Below are positions 1 through 44,571 of a stretch of DNA of 64,000 nt, one piece after another. Position 1 is the first letter of the stretch, and every line of letters begins with the position of its first letter. The translations under genes and the position numbers were made by a program. The DNA comes from an uncultured Parcubacteria group bacterium (lineage in GTDB: Bacteria > Patescibacteriota > Patescibacteriia > UBA9934 > CAMTUG01). The notes beneath the pieces are model-generated. The model saw nothing but the letters and a program-made list of their open reading frames with translations, was not told the DNA's origin and did no database searches. The stretch spans positions 64,360-128,359 of the forward strand of contig CAMTUG010000003.1 of the NCBI GenBank assembly GCA_947084965.1, in the 5' to 3' direction.

Positions 1-3000
1 GTTGTTATGAATGTGCCGTCTTCTTCAACCGACCAGTTGTTGCTGATCCCCGCGAGACGACCGACGTTCAATACGTCGTTACCGTTCAGGTAAATGTTTC
101 CACTCATGTTGAGCGTTGAGAGTTGGCCGGAGCTCGTGACGCGGGATGCGGTATTACTTGTGCCCGGCATTTGAGTTGTCCTGCTGCCGTCCCAATATCC
201 ACCTCGAACAAAGACCAAGATCGAATCGGTCGCGCTGCCCGATGCCTCCAAGGCGTACCCGATGATCTGGCCTGCGTTTGTCGCGCGCATGGCGTACCCT
301 GAGCGGGACGACGACGTGAGCGGATCTCCAACGGCGATCGCCCCGTTTTCATTGGTGACTTTCGTTGGAACGCGCCCGGCAAGGGCCACCGGGAAGGAGC
401 CGTCCGTATCTTCACCGGCGATGAATCCAGGATCTGTCGAGACGATACCGATCAGGTTGGCTTCATACGGCGCCGTTGACCGCTGGACGTTGGCACCATT
501 GAGCGCAAGCGACACAACGTCTCCTGGCTCAAGCTGCTGCGTTGATGGGAACATTTCAGCAAAGTCATACGAACCGACCTGCCAACCGGATGCGTTGGTC
601 TTCATGCGACCGTCCACCCCGGCGGTTGAATCGAAGAAGATATAGCGTTCTGTTTGCATCGTGCCGCGATCAGATGGATAGAGCCGGCCGCTGATCGCCA
701 GGTCACCGCCACTGCTGACATAGGCAACTTCGGTGCCATCGTTATTGGTAATTGAGAGACGTGCGTCGGTCGATCCGTCTTCCACCACGGTCTGTAAGTT
801 CATGCCAACGCCCATTGCGGAACCGGCATCCCAACCAGAACCGGCCAGCGTAAGGATATTACTGTCCGCGCTCGTTGTGGCAGTGGCCGTGCCGAGCGAA
901 GCGAGTCCCATAGCGTCGTTAATGATCGTGGCTACGCCGTCTGTCGTAATAATATTGCCTGCGAACCAACCCGGTTTGATGAGAACGGTGATTGATCCGA
1001 AGCCGGTCGTATGATTTTCGAGAGCGTACCCGATGATCACGCCCGGTTCTGTCGCCTTCATGGCGTAGCCGGTCGTAGAGGCAGAAGTGAGTGGATCCCC
1101 GATCGTGATCGCCCCGTTTTCTGCAGAGACAAAGGTCGGCACCTGACCGAGAAGGGCGATCGGATAGTAGTCTGGATCGTTACGGTAGTTCCCGACGAAC
1201 GCCGGAGCGGTCGAAACGACACCGATGACGTTGCTGTCATAGCTCGACGTAGATGCGATCACTCGCGCTGGATCAGCAGAATCAACCCGGACAACTTGTC
1301 CTGGAGCGAGTGACTCTGTGGAATAGAACATTTCCGCAAAGTCAGCCGGGGTGTTGTAGGTGGCGCCATCTCCAAAGACGTCCCCGTCAAGTTGGACGCG
1401 GAAGATGGTGTTCGGGGCGCCGTCGGCATCGGCACGAATGATGAAGACGTCCTCGTCATTTCCTTCGTCGGCTGCGGCCTCGTTCACATCAATCACCAGG
1501 GCCTGTTGGCCGATCGTGTCTCCGGCCTGGGCGTCAACACCGCTTTGAATAATGTAAACACCGACAGAGTCGCCGTTATTTGTTCCTGTACCACCCCCCA
1601 TGTTGCTGATCTTTAGTGCGTCGCCAGTTGTGGCCGTATTGTTGTTGGCCTGATCGATATACACCAGAGCGTCCGTTGCACCAGCGGTGAAGTCGGTACC
1701 GCTATCCGCACGATTGATTTTGATTCCACTGCCGGTGGTGAGGGCATCAACGGAGAGATCGATCCCGTCTCCGCTGGTGACAGTATTGTAGTCAAGGAGC
1801 ATCGCATCGATGACCGTTGAGTCGGTGATAAAGTTAAAGGAGCTCCCTGTCGAGCCGCCGGCGGTAATCCCCCCATCAAGCGTAAGGAACCCTCGGTTAT
1901 TGAGGTCAAAGATTTGATCGGGTGCACCAGTAACATTACTTCGAACGCGAATGACAGATTCAACGGACGTCGCTTGGTTGACATCGATAACAAGCGCTTG
2001 CTGCCCAACGTTATTCGCTCCCGGAGAGTCAACGTTATCTTGGATGATATAAACACCGGTTGCGGTTCCGCCACCGAGTTGACGAACCACCAACGCTTCG
2101 CCTGTGGTGCCGGCATTGTTGTTGGCTTGGTCAATGTAGACAAGGGCGTCTGAAGCGGTGTTGGCAGTGTAGTTTGTTCCGCTATCAGCCCGCTGGACGA
2201 AGATGCCTGAACCGGTTGTAAGAGCATCAACGCTCATGTTTAATCCGTCGTTGGTTGTTAAGGAGTCATACGTCATGGTCATGATATCAACACCAGCTGC
2301 TGCCGAAGTAAATTGGAAGCTGTCGTTGTTTGTGCCGTCTCCAAACACGACCCCCCCAATAGCCGTAAGGGTACCGATATCACTCAACGACATTTCAGCA
2401 GAACCACCTATGATGTTGAAATCAAGCTGTGAATTAGGCGCGGCCCCACCGGCGGTCAGGTTGTGGACAATCGTCGCGTCTCGGCTGGTCACAGTCACCG
2501 GCCCAACGGCCGCGTTCGAATCGAAGGATCCACGGAATGTCATGATCGGAGAGTCCAAAAATACGTTATCTGCAGCGTTGGACGACAAGAGCATTAAGGC
2601 GTCGTCGCTTCCCCCAGCAATCGTACCTGCGCCCGCATTAGGGTTAATTGTGTAGGTAGCTCCGGTATAGATAATGCTGCCGTCCGTATACGAGCTCGAT
2701 GTACCACCGCTTGATGTAATGATGACCGATCCGTTGGCCTCCACTCGGAAAACGTTTGTATTGGCACCGCCAAAATCTGTTTGAATGAGGAAGATATCGG
2801 CAGTACCGGTGTTTTCCGTCGTATCAATAAAGAAGGCCCGGCCGCTGTCATCGGTGAAGTTTCCAGCAGTAATCTGTAACGACTGTCCGGTTGTCATGAC
2901 CGACGTGTCGATCGTTACCCCGTTTGTTCCGGTGGCTTCTGAATCAATATTGATCGCGGTGTTATTGCCATTTTGATCGATAAATACTCCACTGCCGTTA

Positions 3001-6000
3001 CCTGCATTCGTGATTGTAAGCGGGGTTCCATTAGAAGCACCGAAGTTTTGGCTAATACTGACGACCGATGCGTTGTCATTAACTGCGCCACCGCCCGCCG
3101 TAGCCATTTGCGAGCTTACGTTCAAAACCGCACCGGTTGTAGTGAGGGTTGTTCCTCCGCCATTTGAGGTGAGGGAGCGGGTTAAATTGAGGAGGTTTCC
3201 CGAATCCGTTGCGTTCGCGTTATACGTGGCGGTGTGGTTGAGGTCGAGAAGGATACCGCTCGTGATGGCTGAGGTCGAACTAATGCTGCGGGCCGTACCG
3301 GTTGTCAACGAATTGACGGTAAACGCCTGGGCTGTGCCACCCGATCCGGTATAGCTTTGGTTCATGCTGAAACCCGTTTGGTTCCAGGTAAGCAAATTAT
3401 CAAAGTCCACGGTATCTTCGATGTCATCAAAGTCAATACAATCAGAACAGTTGAAACTTGTTGTCGATGTGGCGGCGATCGTTGTTCCAGTGACGGTGAG
3501 GTCATCAGCGACGGTGACCGCACCGGAGTCGTCAGATATATCCCCATTTCCGCTAATATCAAGAGATGAGTTTAAAATCGTGTCCCAGCCGGTCCCCACG
3601 TTGATAGCTGTCGAGTTTGTTACTCCGCCCCCAGCCTCCGTTAGTGGGCCAAAGGCGAGCCCGAAAACGGTATTTGTTCCGGCGGTAGATGTGGCGGTAA
3701 AACCAACAGCATTTAAGATGGTATACGTATCTCCTCCGTCTCCAGTAAAGCCCGGAGTCAAGCTGACAATGCTTCCAGACGCGTTACTGACATCAAAGGT
3801 TAGGGACAGGGCATCCGTATTATTTGTTGTTGATGCCTGCCCAGTGTTGGTGAGGGTGAGCATGTCTGCGGTTGGAGCGCCGGTTGCAATGATCTGTATG
3901 TTTGTGTCCGTGTCTGGATTAAAGATAACGTCTCCGGCTCCGGTGCCGACAAACGAAAGGTTAAAGCCGGCAACGTTAATGGCGGTTGCTGCGTCAAGGA
4001 TGGGGGTGTCGGCAAAATCATCAAAATCAATACAATCGGCACAGTTCAACGAGGTGACCGACGCCGCTGAAATCGTCGTGCCGGTGGTGATGGTGAGGTT
4101 GTCGTCGATCTGCACGGTGCCCCCGGCGTTAATAAGGAGAGTTGCCCCGTCTGAAGTAATATCATCTCCGTTCACGGCCAAGTCGCCGGCAAGGTTTAGG
4201 CCGCCTCCAGCCACAAAGTCCGTTCCAGCATCCCCAATGTTAAGGACGAAGTTATTATTCATGTCCAGGTTACCGGTCAAAGAAAGAGATCCGGCAGAAA
4301 CGGCACCACTGAAATCTCCAGCGACCCCATAAATCGTATCCCAGCGTGTTCCCGCCGCACCGATTTCTGCAGACCCCGCCCCCAGTTGCGGCAAAAAGTC
4401 ATCATCCGTGCCGAGCTGGACGGTGCCAGAAGAGTCGATCGTCATGGTGCCAGTCGAGGTGATCGATCCGTCATAATAGTTAGTGGAGAACGCTCCGGCT
4501 GTGAACCCGATATCAGAAAATGCTTCCCCATCCGCTTCGATACGGAAGACAGGATCATCGGCTCCGGCAAAATCCGATTCGATGATCACCAGGTCGTCGC
4601 CTTCCGTTGCCCCGTCGTAGTCGATGTACAGGCCCGCCCCGGTCGTGTCGCTGTTGATCGAGCCGTCAATATTAATCTCAACCGCATGACCGCTCGTCAT
4701 CGCGTTTGCTGTTATCACGATGCCGTTACTGATCGTCGCGGACGAAACAATGGAAATACTCTCCCCCTCTCCGGTATGGGTGAGCGAAACAGCTCCCGCG
4801 TCAGCTGCCTGATCAATTCGCAGGGCAGTTCCCCCGTTGCTGATCGTCCCCCCGGCAGCCGTTGTAATGGTGTTGCTGATGTGCAGAATCGGTTCAAGGA
4901 TTTCGAGGTCTGTGCCTGCCCCTGAGGCGACCAACGTGCGGCGCAAATTGGCGATCGCCCCCTCCAGCGTCACTGGCACGCCACCGGCATAGGTTGCTGT
5001 GTGATCAACATCTAGGAGAATGGCATCTGTGGTCGCGCTGGACGTTGATGTCAGGTCAAGGAGAATACCGTCGACAAGGCTTGAGCTTGTCAGATTCATC
5101 GCCCGCCCGCTGGTCAGAGAGTTGGCGGTGTAGGTAAATCCAGTGGTGGTGTCGCCCGTGAAAGTTTGAGACCACGTTCCCGTGCCTTGGTTTAACGTCA
5201 GCGATTCGCCCGAAAAGTCGAGCGTGTCTTCCAAATCATCAAAATCAATACAATCGGCACAGTTCAACGAGGTGACCGACGCCGCTGAAATCGTCGTGCC
5301 GGTGGTGATGGTGAGGTTATCATCGATCTGCACGGTGCCCCCGGCGTTAATAAGGAGGATTGCCCCGTCTGAAGTGATATCATCTCCGTTCACGGCCAAG
5401 TCGCCGGCAAGATTTAGGCCGCCTCCAGCCACAAAGTCCGTTCCTGCGTCCCCAATGTTAAGGACGAAGTTATTATTCATGTCCAGGTTACCGGTCAAAG
5501 AAAGAGATCCGGCAGAAACGGCACCACTAAAATCTCCAGCGACCCCATAAATCGTATCCCAACGTGTTCCGGCTGCACCGATTTCTGCAGACCCCGCCCC
5601 CAGTTGCGGCAAAAAGTCATCATCCGTGCCGAGCTGGACGGTGCCCGAAGAGTCGATCGTCATGGTGACGATACTTGTGATGCTTCCACTATCGATCGCG
5701 ATAGGATTGGTAAATGTTGTTGAACCGTCGTCGGCAAATGTTACAAAGGCCGCTCCCCCGTCGGCGATGCTGAACGTACCAGCTCCATCAAGGTCAATGA
5801 TCAAATCGAACAAGGATGGATTGATGGTCGTTGCCGCATCAAGAACAAGGGAGTCAGAAAGCTCTGTGAAATCAAGAGCGTCATCCGTAATGTCGATAGT
5901 TACGGCCGCGGACTCAGAACCCGAGCCGGCAACAGTGATGTCTCCGGACCCAGCATCCGCCACGGTGGCGACGTAGTTTCCCGTTGTATCTGCTCCAAGG

Positions 6001-6731
6001 CCGACAGCATTGGCTTGAATCGTGGTCACGCCAGCCGAGGAAATGTCGATATCGCCACTGAGGTCGACGGGGTTGTAGTTTGTGCCATCGGCGACCAAAA
6101 CGAATCCAGAGGTATTGGTGGCCATGAACAGGTCATCGCCGGTGATGGTGATATCGCCGGTGATGGTCAAGCCACCCAAGGCATCTGTGACTGGAACAAT
6201 TTCATTTCCACCGACCTGTGAGGAATCAAAGCCATCCAGGAAATCGGTGTTTAAGGCGAATCCTTGTGCGGTGATCTGTTTGCGGGGGGTCAGGAGTTCT
6301 CCGTTAATCGTGACTTCCAACCACAATTCGTCGTTGTCGGCGAACAACGAATCAGGGATGGCAGCGTAGCCATCTGCCACGTAGCCGAGGTTTTCGGAAA
6401 AAAGCCCGTCGGTCAGATCAACCGTTTGATCCGCTGCAGAGCCGGCACCGGCATTACAGGTGGTACTGTCGTTCGACCATTCACACTGGTCGAGGGCTTC
6501 GTCAGAATGAATTTCGAAATTCATGTCTGCCGTCGCGTCCCCGATCGGTACGCCCGCATCGGTTAAGATACGTCCTTGATAGCTAATGACGTTTGGTGGT
6601 GAAGCGGCAAACGCTTTTGGTATGACAGAGAGCAGCGGCCCAAACACGACGCCGAACGAAAGCAGCATCACAAAGAAGAGGGTGGTGAGCCGCTTGTGCA
6701 AGGGGTGGATGTTGTGGGTGCCGGTCGTCAT
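1..6731 (-). CDS. Giant secreted surface protein, partial. The N-terminus is the ATG at 6731-6729; the C-terminus lies beyond the window start, so more than 2243 aa are in the window. It has a signal peptide, Thr/Gly/Asp-rich beta-repeat modules, three NC(A/S)DCIDFDD cysteine motifs, and tandem ~260-aa modules carrying DFAEMF and GYAM(K/R)AT...IIGYALE motifs.
   Basis: My manual reverse-strand translation from 6731 is open all the way to position 1 (MTTGTHNIHPLHKRLTTLFFVMLLSFGVVFGPLLSVIPKAFA|ASPPNV...). The ORF track omits it because no stop codon falls inside the window. Its start lies 1 nt from the stop of the upstream 1102-aa gene, so they are probably co-transcribed. Confidence 0.7.
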   Translation of the reverse strand, partial: MTTGTHNIHPLHKRLTTLFFVMLLSFGVVFGPLLSVIPKAFAASPPNVISYQGRILTDAGVPIGDATADMNFEIHSDEALDQCEWSNDSTTCNAGAGSAADQTVDLTDGLFSENLGYVADGYAAIPDSLFADNDELWLEVTINGELLTPRKQITAQGFALNTDFLDGFDSSQVGGNEIVPVTDALGGLTITGDITITGDDLFMATNTSGFVLVADGTNYNPVDLSGDIDISSAGVTTIQANAVGLGADTTGNYVATVADAGSGDITVAGSGSESAAVTIDITDDALDFTELSDSLVLDAATTINPSLFDLIIDLDGAGTFSIADGGAAFVTFADDGSTTFTNPIAIDSGSITSIVTMTIDSSGTVQLGTDDDFLPQLGAGSAEIGAAGTRWDTIYGVAGDFSGAVSAGSLSLTGNLDMNNNFVLNIGDAGTDFVAGGGLNLAGDLAVNGDDITSDGAILLINAGGTVQIDDNLTITTGTTISAASVTSLNCADCIDFDDLEDTLDFSGESLTLNQGTGTWSQTFTGDTTTGFTYTANSLTSGRAMNLTSSSLVDGILLDLTSTSSATTDAILLDVDHTATYAGGVPVTLEGAIANLRRTLVASGAGTDLEILEPILHISNTITTAAGGTISNGGTALRIDQAADAGAVSLTHTGEGESISIVSSATISNGIVITANAMTSGHAVEINIDGSINSDTTGAGLYIDYDGATEGDDLVIIESDFAGADDPVFRIEADGEAFSDIGFTAGAFSTNYYDGSITSTGTMTIDSSGTVQLGTDDDFLPQLGAGSAEIGAAGTRWDTIYGVAGDFSGAVSAGSLSLTGNLDMNNNFVLNIGDAGTDFVAGGGLNLAGDLAVNGDDITSDGATLLINAGGTVQIDDNLTITTGTTISAASVTSLNCADCIDFDDFADTPILDAATAINVAGFNLSFVGTGAGDVIFNPDTDTNIQIIATGAPTADMLTLTNTGQASTTNNTDALSLTFDVSNASGSIVSLTPGFTGDGGDTYTILNAVGFTATSTAGTNTVFGLAFGPLTEAGGGVTNSTAINVGTGWDTILNSSLDISGNGDISDDSGAVTVADDLTVTGTTIAATSTTSFNCSDCIDFDDIEDTVDFDNLLTWNQTGFSMNQSYTGSGGTAQAFTVNSLTTGTARSISSTSAITSGILLDLNHTATYNANATDSGNLLNLTRSLTSNGGGTTLTTTGAVLNVSSQMATAGGGAVNDNASVVSISQNFGASNGTPLTITNAGNGSGVFIDQNGNNTAINIDSEATGTNGVTIDTSVMTTGQSLQITAGNFTDDSGRAFFIDTTENTGTADIFLIQTDFGGANTNVFRVEANGSVIITSSGGTSSSYTDGSIIYTGATYTINPNAGAGTIAGGSDDALMLLSSNAADNVFLDSPIMTFRGSFDSNAAVGPVTVTSRDATIVHNLTAGGAAPNSQLDFNIIGGSAEMSLSDIGTLTAIGGVVFGDGTNNDSFQFTSAAAGVDIMTMTYDSLTTNDGLNMSVDALTTGSGIFVQRADSGTNYTANTASDALVYIDQANNNAGTTGEALVVRQLGGGTATGVYIIQDNVDSPGANNVGQQALVIDVNQATSVESVIRVRSNVTGAPDQIFDLNNRGFLTLDGGITAGGSTGSSFNFITDSTVIDAMLLDYNTVTSGDGIDLSVDALTTGSGIKINRADSGTDFTAGATDALVYIDQANNNTATTGDALKISNMGGGTGTNNGDSVGVYIIQSGVDAQAGDTIGQQALVIDVNEAAADEGNDEDVFIIRADADGAPNTIFRVQLDGDVFGDGATYNTPADFAEMFYSTESLAPGQVVRVDSADPARVIASTSSYDSNVIGVVSTAPAFVGNYRNDPDYYPIALLGQVPTFVSAENGAITIGDPLTSASTTGYAMKATEPGVIIGYALENHTTGFGSITVLIKPGWFAGNIITTDGVATIINDAMGLASLGTATATTSADSNILTLAGSGWDAGSAMGVGMNLQTVVEDGSTDARLSITNNDGTEVAYVSSGGDLAISGRLYPSDRGTMQTERYIFFDSTAGVDGRMKTNASGWQVGSYDFAEMFPSTQQLEPGDVVSLALNGANVQRSTAPYEANLIGIVSTDPGFIAGEDTDGSFPVALAGRVPTKVTNENGAIAVGDPLTSSSRSGYAMRATNAGQIIGYALEASGSATDSILVFVRGGYWDGSRTTQMPGTSNTASRVTSSGQLSTLNMSGNIYLNGNDVLNVGRLAGISNNWSVEEDGTFIT

Positions 6732-6732
6732 A

Positions 6733-9700
6733 TTATGATTTTTCTGGTTTGGGGGCGGCATCGAGCTCGACGTCGATCGCGATCTCCCCTGGTTCCTTGC
6801 TTGTCGTCGTGTCGATCGGGCGGATTTCGACTTTCTGATACCCAGGTTTTTCGTACGTTGTGAAGTATTGGCTCGGTCCGACAAGGAAGCTGTAGCGGCC
6901 TTTGGCATCGGTGATCGCCGTTTCAAGGAGCTTGTTATATTTCGGTTCGAAGATGCGCACCACGGCGTTGCTCAGCGGTTGAGCCGTTCCTTTGTCGTAG
7001 ACGATCCCCCAGCCCTTTGGTTTATGCGCCTTGGCGAGGCGCCGTGTTCCAAGGAGCAGGAGTACCTGGATGATTGCACCCGCCGCGGTAATCCAACCCG
7101 GTCGGATGATGAAGATAAAGAAGGCGAGGGTGCAACCGATAGCCGCAATCGTATTTTGCAATAGGCGCAGGATACGTCGGATCACCAGTTTGCGCGCTTC
7201 GTGATATTCGGCCTTCTTCGTTGGATCGAGAGGGATGTTGACGGCGATTGTGGCATCGTTACTTTCTACCCGGATCGATTCTCCGTGGTAGACATCGAGG
7301 TAATTTCCGTCCTCTTTTGCCCCGTTCAAGATTTGCGATGGGAAGACGAATCCTGGCTTCAAAGCGATGATGCGATAGTCCCCTTCCTTCACAAGGAAGA
7401 AGAAGCGCCCTTCCTTATCTGTGACACGCGTCATGACCAGCTTGTTTTCCGGGAGTTTGTACAAGCGGACGATCGCCAGGTCGATCGGGGTTTTGAGGCC
7501 GGCGTGATAGACAACCCCCCAGGCTTTGCGTTTTTTGCGCCAGAGGAAGAGCACTGGCCAAGTCATCACGTACTGCAGGAGCGGGGCGAGCCCGAACAGG
7601 CTCCACAGCAGCCCAACAGAGGCGATACCGATCACGATGGCAGCAGGGACGGCGATGTCTGTCGCGACCTGGATTTCCGGTATGTTGCGAAGATCGTCGA
7701 AGATCGTTTTGATCGCCGAGATCACGGCGTCGGCTACAGCGACGGCGGTTTCCAGGGACGGTTCCCCTTCGGCGATAATCTCTGGGATCGTCATCGGAAC
7801 GCGAGAAATCTCGACGGTCAGGGTGGCGATGTTATTACTGACGACGAACGTGCTCGAGGTCGCGTCTTCGTAGCCAGACTTACTGACCTCTACGCGGTAC
7901 GTTCCGTTCTCTACGTACCAGGCGTAAGTGCCGTCTGAGCTCGTGGCGTCTGGGTTCGACTGTCCACCAAATTGGTAGACATCCATCAGTTCCCACGTGC
8001 CGAACTGACTTTGCATCAAAGAGACGATCGCTCCTGGGACACGCATCACGGCCCCCTCATACACTTCATAGACATAGCCGAGGTCGACGACGTTTAACGT
8101 GTAGTCGAACACCTGGCCCGTACCGTCTGTATAAAGGAAGGTCAGGGTAAGGTTGTATGAACCGGAGTCGTCCGGCGCCTGGATATACGCTCGGTATCCA
8201 TCGCCAGAAGATTCAAGGGACACGATGTAGGTATCTCCGTTTAGAGTCACCGTTACTGAGGCAACGTCTACGCCGCTAATGGCGTCTGCTGGAATGAAGA
8301 TCGAGAAGATCGTACTTGGGATGACATCGACCATGCCTTCGTCCGCTGAGAGTAAAATCGTGTCCTCAGCTGAATAAAACTCGGTGGCACTGCTCGTGGT
8401 CCCCGTACCTGTTGCAGGTGGGGTGATTTCCTCCGACGCTGTCTCTTCGTCGTCGGGAGTTTCTCCTCCTGGAGTTTCGGTAGTTGTCTCTCCATCGGGA
8501 GTCTCTTCGGTTTCCCCGCCCGGGATTTCGTCTTCTGGCACTTCCTCCTCATCGGTTGGTGGCACATCGGTCGCTTGTGGCGTGCAAGCCTTGGTCGTGC
8601 CTGAAGAGTAGTTCCCCCCGTCGTCAAAGACAAAGTGGGTACAGAAGTAGGTCGTGCTGTTCGTCAGACCGCTTACCGTTGTTGATTGCGTTGAGGCGCT
8701 GCCGCTGAAGTGGGTCGTGCCTTCGCTTTCGTCTTGCGGGTAACCGCTTGTCGAACAGGTGATCATCGATCCAGCGAGATCGTCTTCGCTTGGCATCGTC
8801 CAGTCAAAGTCGATCGCGGCGTCAGCGGCGGTACAGCTGAAGCCGGTGGCATTGGCTGGTGGAGTGTCTTCGGTCGTTGTAAAGGACGCGTTTCCGGACT
8901 CGGCTGCATCTCCATCATCGCCATCGCAGACGATGTTGAATTGATACTCCGTGCCCGAGTCGAGGCCTGAGATCGTTACGGTGTGTGACGTACCAGAACT
9001 CGACCCGGTCACTGAGCCATAGCTTTCGGTCAGACCGTATTCGATAGAACAGGTCGCCTCTTCGTTCGTATCAAATGTGACGGTCGCGGACGACGTTGTT
9101 TCGTCCATCACAGCAACATCACTGATCGCGAGCGCGGTGCTCGTATCGGTTGTGCAGGTTTCGTCGCTGCCGAATTCTTCGTCGCCTTCGGCGTCGGTAG
9201 AGCGCACGCGGTAATGGTAGGTCGTCCCGCTTGAAAGACCGGCGAGGACGATTTCGTGGCTGGTATCCAGCGTGGCGTCCGTTTCTGTTCCGGAAGCGTA
9301 GGACGACGTCAGACCGTAGTCGACGCTACTGTCGGCTGCGATGTTCGTATTCCAGGTGATCGAGAGGGTGGTGTCGCTGGCGGAACACGCGACGTTTGAG
9401 ATTGCAGGCGCGCTGGAAGCTCCCTCGCCACCTGGGTCTCCTCCTCCATCCCCACCAACGTCACCAACGGTCGCTGTGACGCCGATCGCGCTATCATCAA
9501 TGATCGGCAGAGCGATCGTTCCAAAGTCGCCGAACGTTCCTCCGATCGTAATGAAGTACGTTCCGGCAGATCCTGGATTGGTCACCTGTTCAGCACCGAC
9601 CCCTGACGCCGCTGCTTGATCGCCGATTTCGATCACGACTTCGCTCCCCGCCGCAATCGCCCCGCCATCCCCCGCACAGATCGTGATGGTCAGGATGTCG

Positions 9701-10041
9701 GCGGCAATGGCGACGGAGGCTTGTTCCGCGGCGGCACAGTTGGCGGCTGTGGTGAGATCAAGGCCGTCGTCGCTCACATCGACGTCGTCTTCATCAATCA
9801 GCGCCGTGTTAAAGGACGAGGCAAAACTAACGGTAATCGTCTCTCCTTCCGCCGCCCCGGATGGGGTTGTGAAGGTAATCGTGTGATTGCTCGCTTCCCC
9901 TGCTGTTTGGTCACTCATCAGGTCGCTTGCATCGGTCACGGTAGCTGCGTTGGCTACAGGAGCAAACCCCAACGACGGGAAGCCGAGGAGCATGCTGAGC
10001 GTGAAGATGCAGAAGCGTTTGATGATGAAGTGATGGGACAC
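6733..10041 (-). CDS. Large cell-surface protein of 1102 aa. Domain order is signal peptide, three fibronectin-III-like repeats, an acidic PT/E-rich linker, then three carboxypeptidase-regulatory-like (CarboxypepD_reg) beta-sandwich domains interleaved with transmembrane segments.
   Basis: ORF track entry. The FN3-like repeats show (SVDYGLTSSYASG...TTYHYRV; SIEYGLTESYG...TEYQFNIV). The CarboxypepD_reg-like stretches read (GTYRVEVSKSGYED; EGDYRIIALKPGF; KGRYSFLVGPSQYFTTYEKPGYQ). Hydrophobic helices fall around aa 795-830 and 950-990. Confidence 0.7.
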   Translation of the reverse strand: MSHHFIIKRFCIFTLSMLLGFPSLGFAPVANAATVTDASDLMSDQTAGEASNHTITFTTPSGAAEGETITVSFASSFNTALIDEDDVDVSDDGLDLTTAANCAAAEQASVAIAADILTITICAGDGGAIAAGSEVVIEIGDQAAASGVGAEQVTNPGSAGTYFITIGGTFGDFGTIALPIIDDSAIGVTATVGDVGGDGGGDPGGEGASSAPAISNVACSASDTTLSITWNTNIAADSSVDYGLTSSYASGTETDATLDTSHEIVLAGLSSGTTYHYRVRSTDAEGDEEFGSDETCTTDTSTALAISDVAVMDETTSSATVTFDTNEEATCSIEYGLTESYGSVTGSSSGTSHTVTISGLDSGTEYQFNIVCDGDDGDAAESGNASFTTTEDTPPANATGFSCTAADAAIDFDWTMPSEDDLAGSMITCSTSGYPQDESEGTTHFSGSASTQSTTVSGLTNSTTYFCTHFVFDDGGNYSSGTTKACTPQATDVPPTDEEEVPEDEIPGGETEETPDGETTTETPGGETPDDEETASEEITPPATGTGTTSSATEFYSAEDTILLSADEGMVDVIPSTIFSIFIPADAISGVDVASVTVTLNGDTYIVSLESSGDGYRAYIQAPDDSGSYNLTLTFLYTDGTGQVFDYTLNVVDLGYVYEVYEGAVMRVPGAIVSLMQSQFGTWELMDVYQFGGQSNPDATSSDGTYAWYVENGTYRVEVSKSGYEDATSSTFVVSNNIATLTVEISRVPMTIPEIIAEGEPSLETAVAVADAVISAIKTIFDDLRNIPEIQVATDIAVPAAIVIGIASVGLLWSLFGLAPLLQYVMTWPVLFLWRKKRKAWGVVYHAGLKTPIDLAIVRLYKLPENKLVMTRVTDKEGRFFFLVKEGDYRIIALKPGFVFPSQILNGAKEDGNYLDVYHGESIRVESNDATIAVNIPLDPTKKAEYHEARKLVIRRILRLLQNTIAAIGCTLAFFIFIIRPGWITAAGAIIQVLLLLGTRRLAKAHKPKGWGIVYDKGTAQPLSNAVVRIFEPKYNKLLETAITDAKGRYSFLVGPSQYFTTYEKPGYQKVEIRPIDTTTSKEPGEIAIDVELDAAPKPEKS

Positions 10042-10071
10042 ACAGAGAAAGGTCTGGTCGTTACGAAGGAC

Positions 10072-11115
10072 TTACTTCGGCGGACACTCCTCACGAATGA
10101 TCGTCTGTCTGTACGACTTCATGAGTAGAATGAGAGCGACGATCGCGATCATGACGAGGATCAGGAGCTGCCAAGGGATAACCCAGAAGTTCGTTGATGC
10201 TGTTGTGATCGTGTCGCCGGTGCCGTAGCTCATGACGAGCGTTGCTTGGTATAGGCCTAGGCCGAAGTTGCGCCATTCGTCGACGAGTTCGATGGCATCG
10301 GCCGGGACTTCGTTCTTTTGCCAATGCACAGTGAATTGGCGAGTGGAGTTTGGGAGGACGTATCCGCCCTCGGCGTTGACGGGGATCGTAGCGCTTTCGT
10401 TCCCGAGCATGTTCGTAATATGGATCTCTCCAAACGGGGCGAGATGAGTGGTACCCGCATTTTGGAAGCGAACATCAAAGGTGATAGGGAGCGATGACGT
10501 CGTTTTTGGAGTGGCGGTGAATTCCAGGATCGCTCCTGATTCCGTCGCAGCTCCTTCGACCGAGATGAGAACGAGCGTTCCTATCTTTACCACTGTTGCC
10601 AGTTCGTCCTGTATCCGTGGCAAGGCGGTACTCATGAGGAGACCACCAAAGTAGCTCCCCGGCGTCGTTCCTTCGGGAACACGAATGGTGAAGGCGACGT
10701 AGCGCGTCTCGTCTGGCGCAAGGGTCACAGTCGAACTTTCAAACTCGACCCACGAAGCGATCGATCGTTCGGATTGAACCCCCTCCGATAAAAAGTGAGG
10801 AGTTCCGGTTTCGTCGTCGGCCGCGATGAAGTCCTGTACGGTCGGGTAGAGCGTTTCTGCGACCTCCGTCTCATTGTGTAGTCGTACTGTGCCAGCGATC
10901 TCTTCGCCTGGCTTGACGCTATACTCCATGATCAACGGAGACACAGATAAGGCCTGCGCGGATTGTGTGCCGGCAAAGCAGAGGGCAAGGATCGCCAGAA
11001 CGATAAGTCCGCGTTGTTTTGAGTGGGCTTCGGACATACTGTGGACTTGGGCGGCAGGGAGAAAACGTACAAGCATGTGGCGTCTTCTTCCTGCTTTATG
11101 AAGTCCACGGCTCAA
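10072..11115 (-). CDS. Secreted protein with a C-terminal membrane anchor, 347 aa as listed. The likely true start is the ATG at 11037, which gives a canonical signal peptide. Its architecture resembles DUF916/CscA-type surface-complex proteins.
   Basis: ORF track. The N-region SEAHSKQRG plus LIVLAILALCFAG and an AQA|LS cleavage site make a signal peptide. The C-terminal WQLLILVMIAIVALILLM helix is followed by basic residues. It is adjacent to, and co-oriented with, the other surface-protein genes. Confidence 0.55.
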   Translation of the reverse strand: MSRGLHKAGRRRHMLVRFLPAAQVHSMSEAHSKQRGLIVLAILALCFAGTQSAQALSVSPLIMEYSVKPGEEIAGTVRLHNETEVAETLYPTVQDFIAADDETGTPHFLSEGVQSERSIASWVEFESSTVTLAPDETRYVAFTIRVPEGTTPGSYFGGLLMSTALPRIQDELATVVKIGTLVLISVEGAATESGAILEFTATPKTTSSLPITFDVRFQNAGTTHLAPFGEIHITNMLGNESATIPVNAEGGYVLPNSTRQFTVHWQKNEVPADAIELVDEWRNFGLGLYQATLVMSYGTGDTITTASTNFWVIPWQLLILVMIAIVALILLMKSYRQTIIREECPPK

Positions 11116-11148
11116 TGTTCGTCTCTTTGAACGCTGAGCCGTACCCTC

Positions 11149-12087
11149 CTAATAGTTACCGGTGACGACAAAGGTTAGGACGTGCGAGTAAGCACCGCTC
11201 GCTGTGGTGACGCTCGCTGCTGCTTTTAGCGTAAGGAAATCTCGCGAGTCGTAGGATGTATCATTCCTTGTCCCGATCGCCTGGAATGACCCCGTGATCG
11301 CGGTGTCCTCTGTGTCAAAGGTCGAGGTCGCGAGTGAGCCGTCTGACGAGATCGCTCCGTACTCCTCGTTTCCAATATCCACGCTTCCTCCCACCACATC
11401 ATCAATATCGTTCGCTCCAGAAGTGAGATTTTCATCCTCCTGAAGCTGAATTGTGTAGCCGTTTGGACTATCAGCGGTGATGTTCCACCCGATCACTCCG
11501 GTTGAGACTTCGGTTGTTGTGATTTCTCCAAGAGAGACGGATGTTCCGTCAAGAAGGTAGACAGCGTCGTTTGTACCATCGATGACTGGGGCGGTGCCGC
11601 TGTCTGTAAGGGAATCAACGGTCAGTGTATCTGCGTCCTTGGACACAAGCTGTCCGATAGCAGAGACCTGGGCCGCGCCTTCGTCCTGGATGAGGACGAT
11701 GTAGTCACCAACGGTAAAGGCCCCGGTCGCTCCAACTTCGATCGCTGTTCCTGCGTATGAATTGGCAGTTGTCGTCGTCGCAGCCACCTGGGGGAGCAGG
11801 GAATAGGTAAGGACCTGATCCTGAACTCCTTGTCGGTAACCGGCACGCAGGGCGTAGCTGGCGCTGGTTGATGATCCGATCGCGGTGTTACCGATCGTGT
11901 CACGGAGCTGGTAAGAGGCTGAGGAAGAGTCATCGCTTCCGCCAGAGCTAATCGTGTCCCACTCGATCGTGTAGCTGGCTGACGACATGGCGGCAGATAC
12001 GGAACCGGTATTGAAAAGGAGCGCAAGCAAGAGAATGCTGGCGGATAGTGCAAAAAAGGCGTTCTTTTTGTTTTTCCTTACCTGCAT
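11149..12087 (-). CDS. Small secreted Ser/Thr-rich beta protein of 312 aa, the first gene of the surface-protein locus.
   Basis: ORF track. The signal peptide reads MQVRKNKKNAFFALSASILLLALLFNTGSVSA|A. It has repeated SASY-x-L/I motifs and no transmembrane segment. It is followed within 33 nt by the next gene. Confidence 0.55.
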   Translation of the reverse strand: MQVRKNKKNAFFALSASILLLALLFNTGSVSAAMSSASYTIEWDTISSGGSDDSSSASYQLRDTIGNTAIGSSTSASYALRAGYRQGVQDQVLTYSLLPQVAATTTTANSYAGTAIEVGATGAFTVGDYIVLIQDEGAAQVSAIGQLVSKDADTLTVDSLTDSGTAPVIDGTNDAVYLLDGTSVSLGEITTTEVSTGVIGWNITADSPNGYTIQLQEDENLTSGANDIDDVVGGSVDIGNEEYGAISSDGSLATSTFDTEDTAITGSFQAIGTRNDTSYDSRDFLTLKAAASVTTASGAYSHVLTFVVTGNY

Positions 12088-26963: not shown

Positions 26964-27881
26964 TTACGCCGCTGAGCCGTGGAACTTTTTGTGCACGTCG
27001 CGGAGTGTTTTGTCGGTGATGTGGGTGTAGACCTGAGTAGTGGTGATCGAAGAGTGTCCGAGCATCGACTGCACAGCGCGGATGTCGGCGCCGTTGCGCA
27101 GCAAGTCGGTGGCGAAGGTGTGACGGAGTGTGTGCGGAGTGATCGTTTTGGTGATTCCGGCGGCCACGGCGCAGCGTTCAATCATCCGTTGCACAGAACG
27201 TGGGGAGAGCGGGCTTGTGGAATTACGCCCCTTTTTGGCGCGATCATGCGACACAAACAGGTACGGGGAGATGTCCATCCGTTTTTCAAGATAGGATTTG
27301 ACGTGTTTGCGCGCCTCATCCGAAAGAAAGACGATGCGTGTTTTGCCGCCCTTGCCGCGAATCGTAAATTCATCGCGCTCCAGGTTAATATTTTCGATCT
27401 TGAGGTTGGTGAGTTCGGAGACGCGGAGGCCGGCGGAGAAGAGCAGTTCAATAATCGCTCGATCACGCAGACCGACGATCCCGGGCTTGGCGCAAGCTTG
27501 GCCGATTATGCGTTTTAATTCTTCTGCCTCGAGGAACTCGACCTGTCGTGATGGTTGCTTGGCGAGCTCGATCTTTTCTGGAGCTAAGCAGTCCATGTCG
27601 CGTTTGGCGCAATACTTCAAAAAAGATCGCAAAGCGATCAGGTGGTAGTTTTGGGTGTTCGCCTTGACCATTCCGTCCTGTCGTCCGATGACGTTGCGAT
27701 TCAGCCACAAGCGAAATTGTCGGACTTTGTCTGCAGTCACTTCGCTCAGTGTTTTGCATTGCGACCACTCCGTAAAACGTTGGAGATAAAACTTATAGTT
27801 GTCGATCGTTTTCAACGAGCGCCCCTTTTCAACCTCCAAATGTTCTAAAAACTCCCTCACCAATGTATCGAGCTGTGTCAT
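26964..27881 (-). CDS. Tyrosine recombinase XerC/XerD family.
   Basis: The C-terminal catalytic motifs read RHTFATDLL...LGHSSITTTQVYTH. Confidence 0.8.
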   Translation of the reverse strand: MTQLDTLVREFLEHLEVEKGRSLKTIDNYKFYLQRFTEWSQCKTLSEVTADKVRQFRLWLNRNVIGRQDGMVKANTQNYHLIALRSFLKYCAKRDMDCLAPEKIELAKQPSRQVEFLEAEELKRIIGQACAKPGIVGLRDRAIIELLFSAGLRVSELTNLKIENINLERDEFTIRGKGGKTRIVFLSDEARKHVKSYLEKRMDISPYLFVSHDRAKKGRNSTSPLSPRSVQRMIERCAVAAGITKTITPHTLRHTFATDLLRNGADIRAVQSMLGHSSITTTQVYTHITDKTLRDVHKKFHGSAA

Positions 27882-44517: not shown

Positions 44518-44571
44518 AGTGCTCACATAGTACCGTAAATGCGAAGAGGAGCACACCGTCTTGTGTACTCC

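What the first reader, a model, noticed from the sequence alone, without database searches (positions are those of the whole stretch)
1..6731. Unlisted giant surface-protein gene running off the window, with a 97%-identical internal 436-nt duplication
My reverse translation from the ATG at 6731 gives an uninterrupted reading frame of more than 2243 codons down to position 1. It starts with a textbook signal peptide and has a highly repetitive Thr/Gly/Asp/Asn-rich beta-type composition. The supplied ORF track shows only short antisense ORFs over this span.

Inside the gene, 4014-4449 and 5234-5669 are about 97% identical at the DNA level, and a diverged third copy sits near 3400-3480. Each copy encodes an NC(A/S)DCIDFDD Cys-pair motif.

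The C-proximal part (nt about 1350 to 100) holds two tandem ~260-aa modules that share (A/Y)DFAEMF, NLIG(I/V)VST, GYAM(K/R)AT and IIGYALE motifs. I cannot assign these to a named family.

Giant secreted repeat proteins like this are candidate adhesins or cell-cell contact factors, and near-identical internal repeats suggest ongoing recombination or size variation.
Basis: seen in the sequence. Interest (0 to 1): 0.6.

Follow-up and report, generated by a model that had tools for sequence, protein, structure and literature searches.

The report
Giant tail-fibre-like surface protein gene
The window's left end holds most of a real 2,456-residue secreted protein of an ultra-small (CPR, probably Uhrbacteria) bacterium that ends in two copies of the self-cleaving folding domain of phage tail spikes and lies in a conserved pilus-like surface operon, so it is probably a phage-style fibre the cell uses on its own surface.

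Summary
The minus strand is open from 6731 (or 6761) to position 3. The full protein is on record as an unnamed 2,456-aa product (P0001), so the window lacks the last 203 residues.

The duplication is 4013-4449 versus 5231-5667. It is in frame and 96.8% identical, with dN/dS about 0.05.

The two ~259-aa C-terminal modules can now be named. They are relatives of the Peptidase_G2 autochaperone domain of phage phi29 tail-spike protein gp12. Their D-x-A-E motif aligns with gp12 Asp692 and Glu695, which flank the autocleavage site.

The cassette of module, linker, module, neck and beta-sandwich recurs at full length in all 150 listed cluster representatives. It was found in 523 stretches of species-representative genomes; nearly all of the best 80 with informative labels are Ca. 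Uhrbacteria or Patescibacteria. Viral contigs carry single modules only.

The gene is the last of a syntenic four-gene surface operon: a distant Pam-type pilin, a membrane-anchored Ig-fold protein, an fn3/transmembrane protein, then the fibre. Fibre length varies from about 1,000 to 3,200 aa between species.

Best reading: a Sec-exported, phage-tail-fibre-like surface fibre matured by tandem autochaperones. Trimerisation, cleavage and adhesion are inferred, not shown.

The parts
1..6731 (-). Giant gene, 5' 91% of the coding sequence. An alternative start lies at 6761. The last 203 codons lie beyond window position 1.
   Evidence: Open frame of 2,243 codons. 100% identical to P0001, 2,456 aa. 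68 homologues.
6606..6731 (-). Predicted Sec signal peptide: a basic n-region, a ~24-residue hydrophobic core, then KAFA|AS.
   Evidence: Read from the sequence. An A-x-A site directly before the conserved domain recurs in homologues. No predictor was run.
6222..6605 (-). Conserved N-terminal beta-sandwich domain with two invariant cysteines.
   Evidence: Found at the N-terminus of 36 homologues. Invariant Y-Q-G-R, C49 and C58. AF2 pLDDT 80-95 over model residues 12-120. No significant PDB fold match.
5802..6179 (-). First 'GDDLFMATNTSG...DDALDFTEL' stalk repeat. This unit recurs in variable copy number in relatives.
5231..5667 (-). Near-identical repeat, N-proximal copy, ending in NCADCIDFDD.
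4013..4449 (-). Near-identical repeat, second copy: 96.8% identical, offset 1218 nt.
3402..3492 (-). Diverged third copy of the end of the unit (NCSDCIDFDD).
1359..2387 (-). Two tandem ~160-aa repeats, 53-55% identical, ending in the 'IFRVQLDGDVF' strand that precedes module 1.
933..1349 (-). Module 1: Peptidase_G2-like autochaperone domain. The ADFAEMF motif is at 1326-1346, with its Asp codon at 1341-1343.
597..932 (-). Conserved inter-module linker (LxLxGSxWxG ... YPSDRG ... MxTNAxGW).
   Evidence: many invariant positions. AF2 confidence is low here.
138..596 (-). Module 2: Peptidase_G2-like autochaperone domain. The YDFAEMF motif has its Asp codon at 564-566.
3..137 (-). Start of the conserved 'neck' (LNMSGNIY...WSVEEDGT). 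The beta-sandwich end domain and the acidic Pro/Glu tail lie outside the window.
6733..10041 (-). Upstream operon gene, 1,102 aa: signal peptide, fn3 domains, acidic linker, transmembrane segments and CarboxypepD_reg domains.
   Evidence: A same-strand homologue lies immediately upstream of the fibre gene in 51-52 of 80 related loci.
10072..11115 (-). Operon gene, 347 aa: signal peptide, Ig-like domain (WxLIP_PGBD / fn3_5) and a C-terminal transmembrane helix.
   Evidence: Syntenic in 29 loci.
11149..12087 (-). Operon gene, 312 aa: secreted, distant Pam-type pilin.
   Evidence: NCBIfam CPR_pilus_PamT E 2.4e-10 and CPR_Pam_pilin_C E 0.006, both below the curated cut-offs. All 17 family members tested (this protein and 16 orthologues) hit PamT. 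Syntenic in 38 loci.

Best explanation
The gene encodes a Sec-exported, phage-tail-fibre-like surface fibre of a CPR bacterium, probably Ca. Uhrbacteria.

Shown:
- The protein has this order: signal peptide, a conserved N-terminal beta-sandwich, a hypervariable Thr/Gly/Asp/Asn-rich repeat region built by intragenic duplication and shuffling, then a conserved C-terminal cassette.
- The cassette has two tandem domains homologous to the Peptidase_G2 autochaperone (D4) domain of phi29 tail-spike gp12. Each opens with the D-x-A-E motif that aligns with gp12 Asp692 and Glu695.
- A neck, a small beta-sandwich and an acidic tail follow.
- The gene is the last of a syntenic four-gene surface operon that also encodes a distant Pam-type pilin, a membrane-anchored Ig-fold protein and an fn3/multi-transmembrane protein.

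Inferred:
- After export the C-terminal modules trimerise and nucleate C-to-N folding of the long fibre, as in phage spikes.
- The chain then cuts itself before each Asp. This would give a mature fibre of about 1,750 residues plus fragments of 259 and 391 residues.
- The conserved N-domain docks the fibre to the operon-encoded envelope proteins.
- The variable middle contacts host cells or surfaces and changes length and sequence by recombination between repeats.
For: Gene reality: open frame, exact database match, and dN/dS 0.05 between the duplicated tracts.

G2 homology:
- PF11962 scores 29.8 bits against a cut-off of 25 on the two-module fragment. 12 of 31 single modules hit it.
- A profile of 31 modules hits phi29 gp12 D4 (3gqh, E 4e-5) and full-length gp12 (6qz9). 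The D of D-x-A-E aligns on residue 1 of the released domain, and D and E align on 692 and 695. It also hits the Dpo31 chaperone domain (28nb, E 7e-4).
- The Glu is invariant and the Asp is present in at least 90% of modules. D-x-A-E occurs in 317 of about 334 modules from 176 proteins.

Fold:
- The AF2 modules have pLDDT 75-95.
- The top PDB Foldseek hit is pre-mature gp12 (3suc, probability 1.0).
- 66 viral models match at E<=1e-3. The best reach E 1e-9 and include 'Preneck appendage protein' and tail-fibre proteins.

Literature: gp12 D4 and Dpo31 D4 are cleaved autochaperones (PMC3357383, PMC13317679).

Cellular rather than phage origin:
- Neighbours are polA, holA, rpoBC, pnp, tig and tRNAs.
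- The operon is syntenic in 51 of 80 loci from different species.
- The full cassette is found in 523 genome stretches. Nearly all of the best 80 with informative labels are Uhrbacteria or Patescibacteria.
- Viral contigs carry single modules only, and cultured phages give only 30% coverage.

Conservation pattern: conserved N, variable middle, conserved C.

Pam link. The preprint 10.64898/2026.03.03.709456 notes a 'tail fibre-like protein' co-localising with pam operons.
Against: - No cleavage, trimerisation or surface location has been observed.
- Single modules fall below the Pfam cut-off. The PDB fold E-value is weak (3.7e-3), and the same fold is shared with non-cleaving phage cement proteins (PF09956 at 23.5 bits; Pam3, TW1 and XM1 hits).
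- From my recollection of Xiang et al. 2009, not checked here, release of the cleaved gp12 domain needs ATP. ATP is absent outside the cell.
- Two tandem autochaperones followed by further conserved domains have no characterised precedent, so the C-terminal cassette may stay on as a functional part.
- No anchor motif is present: no LPXTG and no C-terminal transmembrane segment.
- No enzymatic or lectin domain was detected in the middle region.
- The Pam hits of the neighbour are far below the curated cut-offs (40 versus 240 bits).
- The linkers of the AF2 model are unreliable (pLDDT <50), and the monomer model cannot show a trimer.
Confidence: 0.6

Rival explanations
1. It is a phage or prophage tail-fibre or tail-spike gene (or a tailocin fibre) that happens to sit in this contig, not a cellular surface protein.
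For: The only named relatives of the C-terminal modules are phage proteins. A tyrosine recombinase lies at 26964-27881.
Against: The protein has an N-terminal hydrophobic stretch followed by an A-x-A site, read as a Sec signal peptide; from general knowledge, phage tail fibres are not Sec-exported. No capsid, portal, terminase or tail genes lie nearby; the neighbours are housekeeping genes. The same four-gene arrangement, often with divergent rmuC, recurs in dozens of species. No viral contig carries the full cassette. The recombinase is 20 kb away and has a XerC/D-type domain make-up.
Confidence: 0.05
2. The two modules are degenerate, non-catalytic structural domains of the beta-tulip / phage-cement type. 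They stay in the mature protein as an oligomerisation knob and no autoproteolysis occurs.
For: PF09956 Phage_cement_2 scores almost as well as G2. Foldseek also hits capsid cement proteins, and PHROG 673 scores E 2e-14. Conserved domains follow the modules, which is unlike released phage autochaperones. No extracellular ATP is available for release. A few family members have lost the Asp or the Glu.
Against: The D-x-A-E motif at the exact N-terminal boundary is the most conserved feature of the module: Glu is invariant in 31 of 31, and the motif is present in 317 of about 334 modules. It aligns residue for residue with the gp12 cleavage site. From what I know of them, cement proteins lack this motif; I did not check that here.
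Confidence: 0.2
3. It is an S-layer or matrix protein, or a passive coat, whose variability reflects phage or predator evasion rather than host adhesion.
For: The composition is acidic, Thr/Gly/Asp-rich and beta-rich with very few Lys. It is secreted, hypervariable in the middle, and a single copy in the window.
Against: From general knowledge, S-layer proteins are usually much shorter and lack autochaperone cassettes. The architecture (conserved N, variable stalk, C-terminal autochaperones) is that of receptor-binding fibres. The operon partners resemble pilus components.
Confidence: 0.1
4. The near-identical 437-nt repeat is a metagenome assembly artefact, such as a chimeric join or a collapsed or expanded repeat, rather than a true feature of one genome.
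For: The contig appears to be from a metagenome assembly, since every related locus found comes from a MAG. Repeats of this length exceed short-read length, so copy number could be misassembled.
Against: The copies differ at 14 sites, nearly all synonymous. They are in frame and have different flanks. Similar high-identity internal repeats occur in 25 of 68 relatives from independent assemblies.
Confidence: 0.05

Closest known systems
Bacillus phage phi29 pre-neck appendage (tail-spike) protein gp12, C-terminal autochaperone domain D4 (MEROPS/Pfam Peptidase_G2, PF11962; PDB 3gqh, 3suc, 6qz9)
   Same: Sequence-profile and fold similarity of each module. The D-F-A-E-x-F motif is identical at the domain's first residue (gp12 WS|DFAEYFES versus Y|DFAEMFPS and A|DFAEMFYS). 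It lies C-terminal to a long beta-rich fibre region.
   Different: gp12 is 854 aa, cytoplasmic and virion-bound, with one D4 domain at the very C-terminus and a pectate-lyase-type beta-helix. Here the protein is 2,456 aa and Sec-exported, with two tandem modules separated by a conserved linker and followed by a neck, a beta-sandwich and an acidic tail. No enzyme domain was detected. ATP-dependent release cannot apply outside the cell.
Marine podovirus tail-spike Dpo31, chaperone domain D4 (PDB 28nb; PMC13317679)
   Same: Second-best PDB profile hit (E 7e-4). It has an SDYAEYFE start and is reported as a cleaved, trimeric autochaperone.
   Different: It is a phage depolymerase with a single domain.
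Peptidase_S74 intramolecular chaperone domains (K1F endosialidase, T5 pb1, MYRF)
   Same: The same functional logic: a C-terminal, self-cleaving trimerisation chaperone. Some relatives that share this protein's N-domain (for example P0046) end in S74 instead of G2.
   Different: It is a different fold and catalytic type (a Ser-Lys dyad). This protein has no S74 hit.
'Tail fibre-like protein' co-localising with the pam (CPR pilus) operon; Pam pili of Ca. Mycosynbacter amalyticus (bioRxiv 10.64898/2026.03.03.709456)
   Same: CPR-specific. A fibre-like gene lies next to genes for a Pam-type pilin, a membrane-anchored Ig-fold protein (PamC/D-like architecture) and an fn3 + transmembrane protein (PamR-like architecture).
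   Different: The preprint gives one sentence and no analysis of the fibre. Pam pilins are reported mainly in Saccharimonadia and Microgenomatia. Here the pilin-like protein scores far below the NCBIfam cut-offs, only one pilin-like gene is present, and homology of this fibre to the Mycosynbacter one was not tested.

Membership tests
Peptidase_G2 / IMC autoproteolytic cleavage domain (PF11962) | Sequence match to the family model above its gathering score | tested here: met
   29.8 bits against a cut-off of 25 for the two-module fragment. Single modules score 15.7-16.2 bits and would not pass alone. 12 of 31 family modules match at E<=0.01, best 9.5e-8.
Peptidase_G2 / IMC autoproteolytic cleavage domain (PF11962) | Asp and Glu of the D-x-x-E motif at the scissile site (gp12 Asp692, Glu695) | tested here: met
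   The profile alignment puts the module's D and E on gp12 residues 692 and 695, and on residue 1 of the released domain 3gqh. Glu is invariant, Asp is present in at least 90%, and the motif occurs in 317 of about 334 modules. The catalytic assignment of these residues is from my knowledge of Xiang et al. 2009 and MEROPS.
Peptidase_G2 / IMC autoproteolytic cleavage domain (PF11962) | Fold of the gp12 D4 domain | tested here: inconclusive
Peptidase_G2 / IMC autoproteolytic cleavage domain (PF11962) | Trimerisation-dependent self-cleavage and release of the domain | not testable with these tools
   Needs biochemistry or proteomics.
Peptidase_G2 / IMC autoproteolytic cleavage domain (PF11962) | Single domain at the extreme C-terminus of a phage spike or fibre | tested here: not met
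   There are two tandem modules, followed by about 250 further residues, in a cellular, signal-peptide-bearing protein.
Pam pilus system (NCBIfam NF058579 PamT, NF058581 Pam_pilin_C) | Operon pilin reaching the curated model cut-off | tested here: not met
   The 312-aa neighbour scores 40.2 bits against 240, and 16.6 against 55. All 17 family members tested hit PamT, but below the cut-off. It is a distant relative, not an equivalog.
Pam pilus system (NCBIfam NF058579 PamT, NF058581 Pam_pilin_C) | PapD-like chaperone with a C-terminal transmembrane helix; FnIII anchor protein with a transmembrane segment | tested here: inconclusive
   The 347-aa protein has a signal peptide, an Ig-like domain and a C-terminal transmembrane helix. 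The 1,102-aa protein has fn3 domains and transmembrane segments.
Peptidase_S74 (PF13884) | Match to the model; Ser-Lys dyad | tested here: not met
   This protein has no hit. The domain is present only in some relatives.
WxL / Csc cell-surface complex of Firmicutes | WxL-domain protein plus a DUF916/DUF3324 protein | tested here: not met
   Only a borderline WxLIP_PGBD hit (27.8 against 27.3 bits) in the 347-aa protein. No WxL domain was found in any operon protein.

The most novel reading that the evidence does not exclude
Uhrbacteria, and other CPR lineages, have domesticated the phage receptor-binding-fibre design as a cellular organelle. In this reading a giant, recombining fibre is exported by Sec. 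It is folded outside the cell by two tandem self-cleaving G2 autochaperones that work without ATP. It is mounted on a minimal Pam-like pilus base (one pilin-like adaptor, a membrane-anchored chaperone and an fn3/transmembrane anchor). It then serves as the species-specific host-recognition device of these episymbionts, in effect a 'tail fibre without a phage' that replaces the polymeric pilus shaft.
Probability: 0.3. Interest if true: 0.8.

Novelty: new variant of a known kind. Interest (0 to 1): 0.6.

Why it matters
How CPR/Patescibacteria recognise and hold on to their hosts is largely unknown outside a few cultured Saccharibacteria.

This locus defines a large, uncharacterised family. 2,384 cluster representatives match at E<=1e-30, and 523 stretches were found in species-representative genomes. 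It has a clear, testable anatomy: a conserved anchor end, a recombining variable stalk, and a tandem self-processing cassette borrowed from phage spikes. It is also linked by synteny to a distant version of the newly described Pam pilus operon.

The work gives concrete cleavage sites to look for in metaproteomes. It offers a candidate determinant of host range. It also provides a natural case of G2 autochaperones that would have to work extracellularly and in tandem.

Tried and rejected
- Whole-protein Pfam and NCBIfam scans gave nothing. Only fragment scans revealed G2.
- A single-sequence PDB search gave nothing. The profile search was needed.
- Exact look-ups to extend the contig failed for the neighbour and for P0001. 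So did a 50-nt exact search of genome contigs. The C-terminus was therefore taken from P0001, and what lies downstream of the gene in this genome is unknown.
- A combined alignment of the N-domain and first repeat was misaligned by MAFFT and discarded (A3).
- The N-domain fold search found only generic Ig-like sandwiches.
- The pilin-like and Ig/transmembrane neighbours have no sequence relatives in the PDB.
- The WxL/Csc reading of the operon was rejected because no WxL domain is present.
- A polymorphic-toxin or Rhs-like reading was rejected because the C-terminus is the conserved part, not the variable part, and no toxin domain is present.
- The prophage reading was rejected on gene context and synteny.
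- Papers on CPR giant genes and CPR adhesion were searched. None describes this family.

Full report
**1. The observation**

Translating the minus strand from 6731 to 3 gives 2,243 codons without a stop. The ORF lister omits it only because it skips ORFs that run off the source.

A database search returned an exact match, P0001. It is an unnamed 2,456-aa NCBI protein on a 134,912-nt contig, and the window's PolA is recorded on a contig of that same length. P0001 begins 10 codons upstream at an ATG at 6761, which overlaps the preceding gene by 29 nt. I cannot decide between the two starts. The window lacks the last 203 residues.

The internal duplication is real, but its register is 1218 nt (406 codons). 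The tracts are 4013-4449 and 5231-5667, 437 nt with 14 mismatches (96.8%). Of 13 changed codons, 11 are synonymous. Nei-Gojobori gives dS 0.118, dN 0.006 and dN/dS 0.05. Both copies are therefore translated and under purifying selection, and the event is not brand new.

A third, diverged copy of the unit's end lies at 3402-3492. It carries NCSDCIDFDD.

The two C-terminal modules repeat with a 259-aa period. DFAEMF occurs at P0001 residues 1807 and 2066, and the cores are 52-54% identical.

**2. Anatomy**

A BLAST coverage map against 66 relatives shows a conserved N-terminus (about residues 50-330), a poorly conserved middle, and a conserved C-terminus (about residues 1790-2370).

- *N-terminus.* There is a basic stretch, a ~24-residue hydrophobic core, then KAFA|AS directly before the conserved domain. 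I read this as a Sec signal peptide from the sequence; no predictor was run.
- *N-domain.* The next ~125 residues are found at the N-terminus of 36 relatives. They carry invariant YQGR and two invariant cysteines. The AF2 model is a beta-sandwich with pLDDT 80-95. It has no significant PDB neighbour.
- *Middle.* It is rich in Thr, Gly, Ala, Asp, Ser and Asn, with only 2 Lys in 1,450 residues. It is a mosaic of repeats:
  - a 'GDDLFMATNTSG...DDALDFTEL' unit;
  - the 155-aa near-identical unit;
  - an older super-repeat (475-790 versus 1080-1390, 36-55% identical);
  - two tandem 160-aa units (1459-1638 versus 1620-1801).
- *Junction motif.* The Cys-pair motif NC(A/S)DCIDFDD is a variant of the DDALDFTEL junction seen at the end of stalk units in relatives.
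- *Recurring strand.* A strand 'FR(I/V)(E/Q)xDG' recurs at about residues 750, 1370 and 1787. The last occurrence directly precedes the first DFAEMF.

**3. The modules can be named**

Whole-protein Pfam and NCBIfam scans were empty. The 466-aa C-terminal fragment hits PF11962 (Peptidase_G2, IMC autoproteolytic cleavage domain) at 29.8 bits against a cut-off of 25. It also hits PF09956 (Phage_cement_2) at 23.5 bits, just under that model's cut-off.

I extracted 89 modules from the relatives and aligned 31 non-redundant ones (A1). The Glu of D-x-A-E is invariant and the Asp is present in at least 90%.

A profile of A1 hits three relevant sets of PDB entries:
- the released autochaperone domain of phi29 gp12 (3gqh, E 4e-5);
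- full-length gp12 (6qz9, 3suc);
- the 'chaperon domain D4' of tail-spike Dpo31 (28nb, E 7e-4).

In these alignments the module's Asp falls on residue 1 of the released domain. In the full-length chain the Asp and Glu fall on residues 692 and 695. The gp12 sequence is ...NTWS|DFAEYFES; ours are ...VGSY|DFAEMFPS and ...NTPA|DFAEMFYS.

The literature confirms that these phage domains are trimeric autochaperones that are cut off after folding (PMC3357383, PMC13317679).

An AF2 model of residues 1775-2386 has confident modules (pLDDT 75-95) and a confident C-terminal sandwich, but unreliable linkers. Its best PDB Foldseek hit is pre-mature gp12 (3suc, probability 1.0, E 3.7e-3). Phage spikes and capsid cement proteins follow. 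Against viral models there are 66 hits at E<=1e-3. The best, at about E 1e-9, include 'Preneck appendage protein' and tail-fibre proteins.

**4. The family**

A profile of the whole C-terminal cassette (A2) was searched against 1.84 billion cluster representatives. It finds 2,384 at E<=1e-30. All 150 listed hits have E<1e-138, and most match nearly the whole 620-position profile. Their lengths run from 399 to 5,509 aa, the shortest being fragments.

D-x-A-E is present in 317 of about 334 modules, and the last module reads YDFAEMF in 126 proteins.

In species-representative genomes the cassette was found in 523 stretches. The best 80 loci are almost all labelled Ca. Uhrbacteria, Patescibacteria or Parcubacteria. 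A set of TPA MAGs is labelled 'uncultured Gammaproteobacteria'. I suspect those labels are placeholders, because the loci are syntenic with the others.

IMG/VR viral contigs contain only single modules, at 32-41% identity. Cultured phages give only a 30%-coverage hit, in Pseudomonas jumbo phages.

So the module is shared with phages, but the tandem cassette is a cellular feature of CPR bacteria.

**5. Context**

The window is ordinary chromosome. It carries polA, holA, pnp, rpoB, rpoC, tig, H+-PPase, six tRNAs and a XerC/D-type recombinase.

Upstream of the giant gene, on the same strand, lie three genes:
- a 312-aa secreted protein;
- a 347-aa protein with a signal peptide, an Ig-like domain (WxLIP_PGBD / fn3_5) and a C-terminal transmembrane helix;
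- a 1,102-aa protein with fn3 domains, an acidic linker, transmembrane segments and CarboxypepD_reg domains.

tblastn shows the same order in related loci. The fn3/transmembrane gene ends 85-300 nt (rarely up to 660 nt) before the fibre's N-domain in all 51 loci where both features were located. That spacing is about the length of a signal-peptide coding region. The other two genes, and often a divergent rmuC, lie further upstream. Fibre length at this syntenic position ranges from about 1,018 to 3,232 aa.

NCBIfam links the 312-aa protein to the recently described CPR 'Pam' pilus. It scores E 2.4e-10 on CPR_pilus_PamT and E 0.006 on CPR_Pam_pilin_C, both far below the curated cut-offs. All 17 family members tested hit PamT, and 10 of 17 hit Pam_pilin_C.

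The preprint 10.64898/2026.03.03.709456 describes the Pam system in Ca. Mycosynbacter amalyticus. Its components are:
- pilins assembled by donor-strand exchange;
- membrane-anchored PapD-like chaperones with a C-terminal transmembrane helix (PamC and PamD);
- an FnIII anchor with a transmembrane segment (PamR).

In one sentence it notes that 'a tail fibre-like protein' consistently co-localises with pam operons. The architectures of the 347-aa and 1,102-aa proteins fit PamC/D and PamR loosely. I could not test their folds.

**6. Mechanism**

Shown: the domain order, the G2 homology with a conserved catalytic-site motif, the cellular syntenic operon, and the hypervariable, recombining stalk. 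On the last point, 25 of 68 relatives have at least 100 aa in internal repeats that are at least 90% identical.

Inferred, by analogy with gp12 and other fibres that carry intramolecular chaperones:
- The chain is exported unfolded.
- The C-terminal modules, which emerge last, trimerise and template C-to-N folding of the stalk.
- Each module then cleaves before its Asp.
- The conserved N-domain docks to the operon's envelope proteins.
- The variable stalk mediates contact with hosts or surfaces.

Open problems:
- From my recollection of Xiang et al. 2009, release of cleaved gp12 D4 is ATP-dependent, which cannot hold outside the cell.
- It is unclear why there are two modules and what the conserved linker, neck, end sandwich and acidic tail do.
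- It is unknown whether the cassette is discarded or kept as a distal cap.
- The same fold occurs in non-cleaving cement proteins, so a purely structural role is the main rival (about 0.2).

**7. The duplication**

The 97% tract has sharp borders. The two copies are followed by different sequences: the downstream of copy 1 resembles that of the diverged third copy, not that of copy 2. With dS of 0.12, this fits gene conversion or segmental duplication within an older repeat mosaic better than a fresh tandem duplication. Copy number in a short-read metagenome assembly should be confirmed with long reads.

**8. Verdict**

It is a new, large, CPR-restricted variant of the phage-type fibre with a self-cleaving chaperone, embedded in a distant Pam-like operon. 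The protein itself is already deposited as a hypothetical protein. The family and its architecture appear to be undescribed in the literature I could search.

Noticed in passing
window 6733-12087 (minus strand): [quoted passage not shown] It is syntenic with the fibre gene in dozens of Uhrbacteria and Patescibacteria species. It looks like a minimal, divergent Pam-like pilus operon in a lineage where the Pam preprint did not report Pam pilins as prevalent.
   Followed up: partly
P0046, P0052, P0055, P0056, P0059, P0063: Several relatives carry a Peptidase_S74 domain instead of G2. For P0046 I confirmed that it shares this protein's N-terminal domain. That suggests swapping of autochaperone type, as seen in phage fibres.
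   Followed up: no
P0001 residues ~750, ~1370, ~1787 (window nt ~4510, ~2650, ~1400): The strand 'FR(I/V)(E/Q)xDG..F' that precedes the first cleavage motif also ends two internal super-repeats. This hints that the stalk was built by concatenating spike-like units that once ended in an autochaperone.
   Followed up: no
L010 6419-8167 and 8381-12091: In this related locus the fibre gene is split into two ORFs. This is a possible frameshift, pseudogene or assembly error. A TPR protein follows the fibre gene there.
   Followed up: no
L001, L006-L008, L014, L015 and others: Many TPA MAGs titled 'uncultured Gammaproteobacteria bacterium' (binchicken and SRP co-assemblies) carry the same Uhrbacteria-type syntenic locus. 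The organism label is probably a placeholder or an error.
   Followed up: no
P0034, P0030, P0038, P0095, P0155, P0165, P0183: A few family members have lost the Asp or the Glu of the motif in one module (for example SNFAESF, YGFAEMF, YDFAQMF). They are natural candidates for non-cleaving variants.
   Followed up: no
window 6729-6761: Two candidate start codons exist. The ATG at 6761 overlaps the upstream gene by 29 nt and is the one used in the database record. The ATG at 6731 lies 1 nt after the upstream stop. No clear Shine-Dalgarno sequence precedes either.
   Followed up: partly
window 42166-44556 (minus strand): A 796-aa GGDEF-domain protein is encoded here. I did not look at it further.
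   Followed up: no
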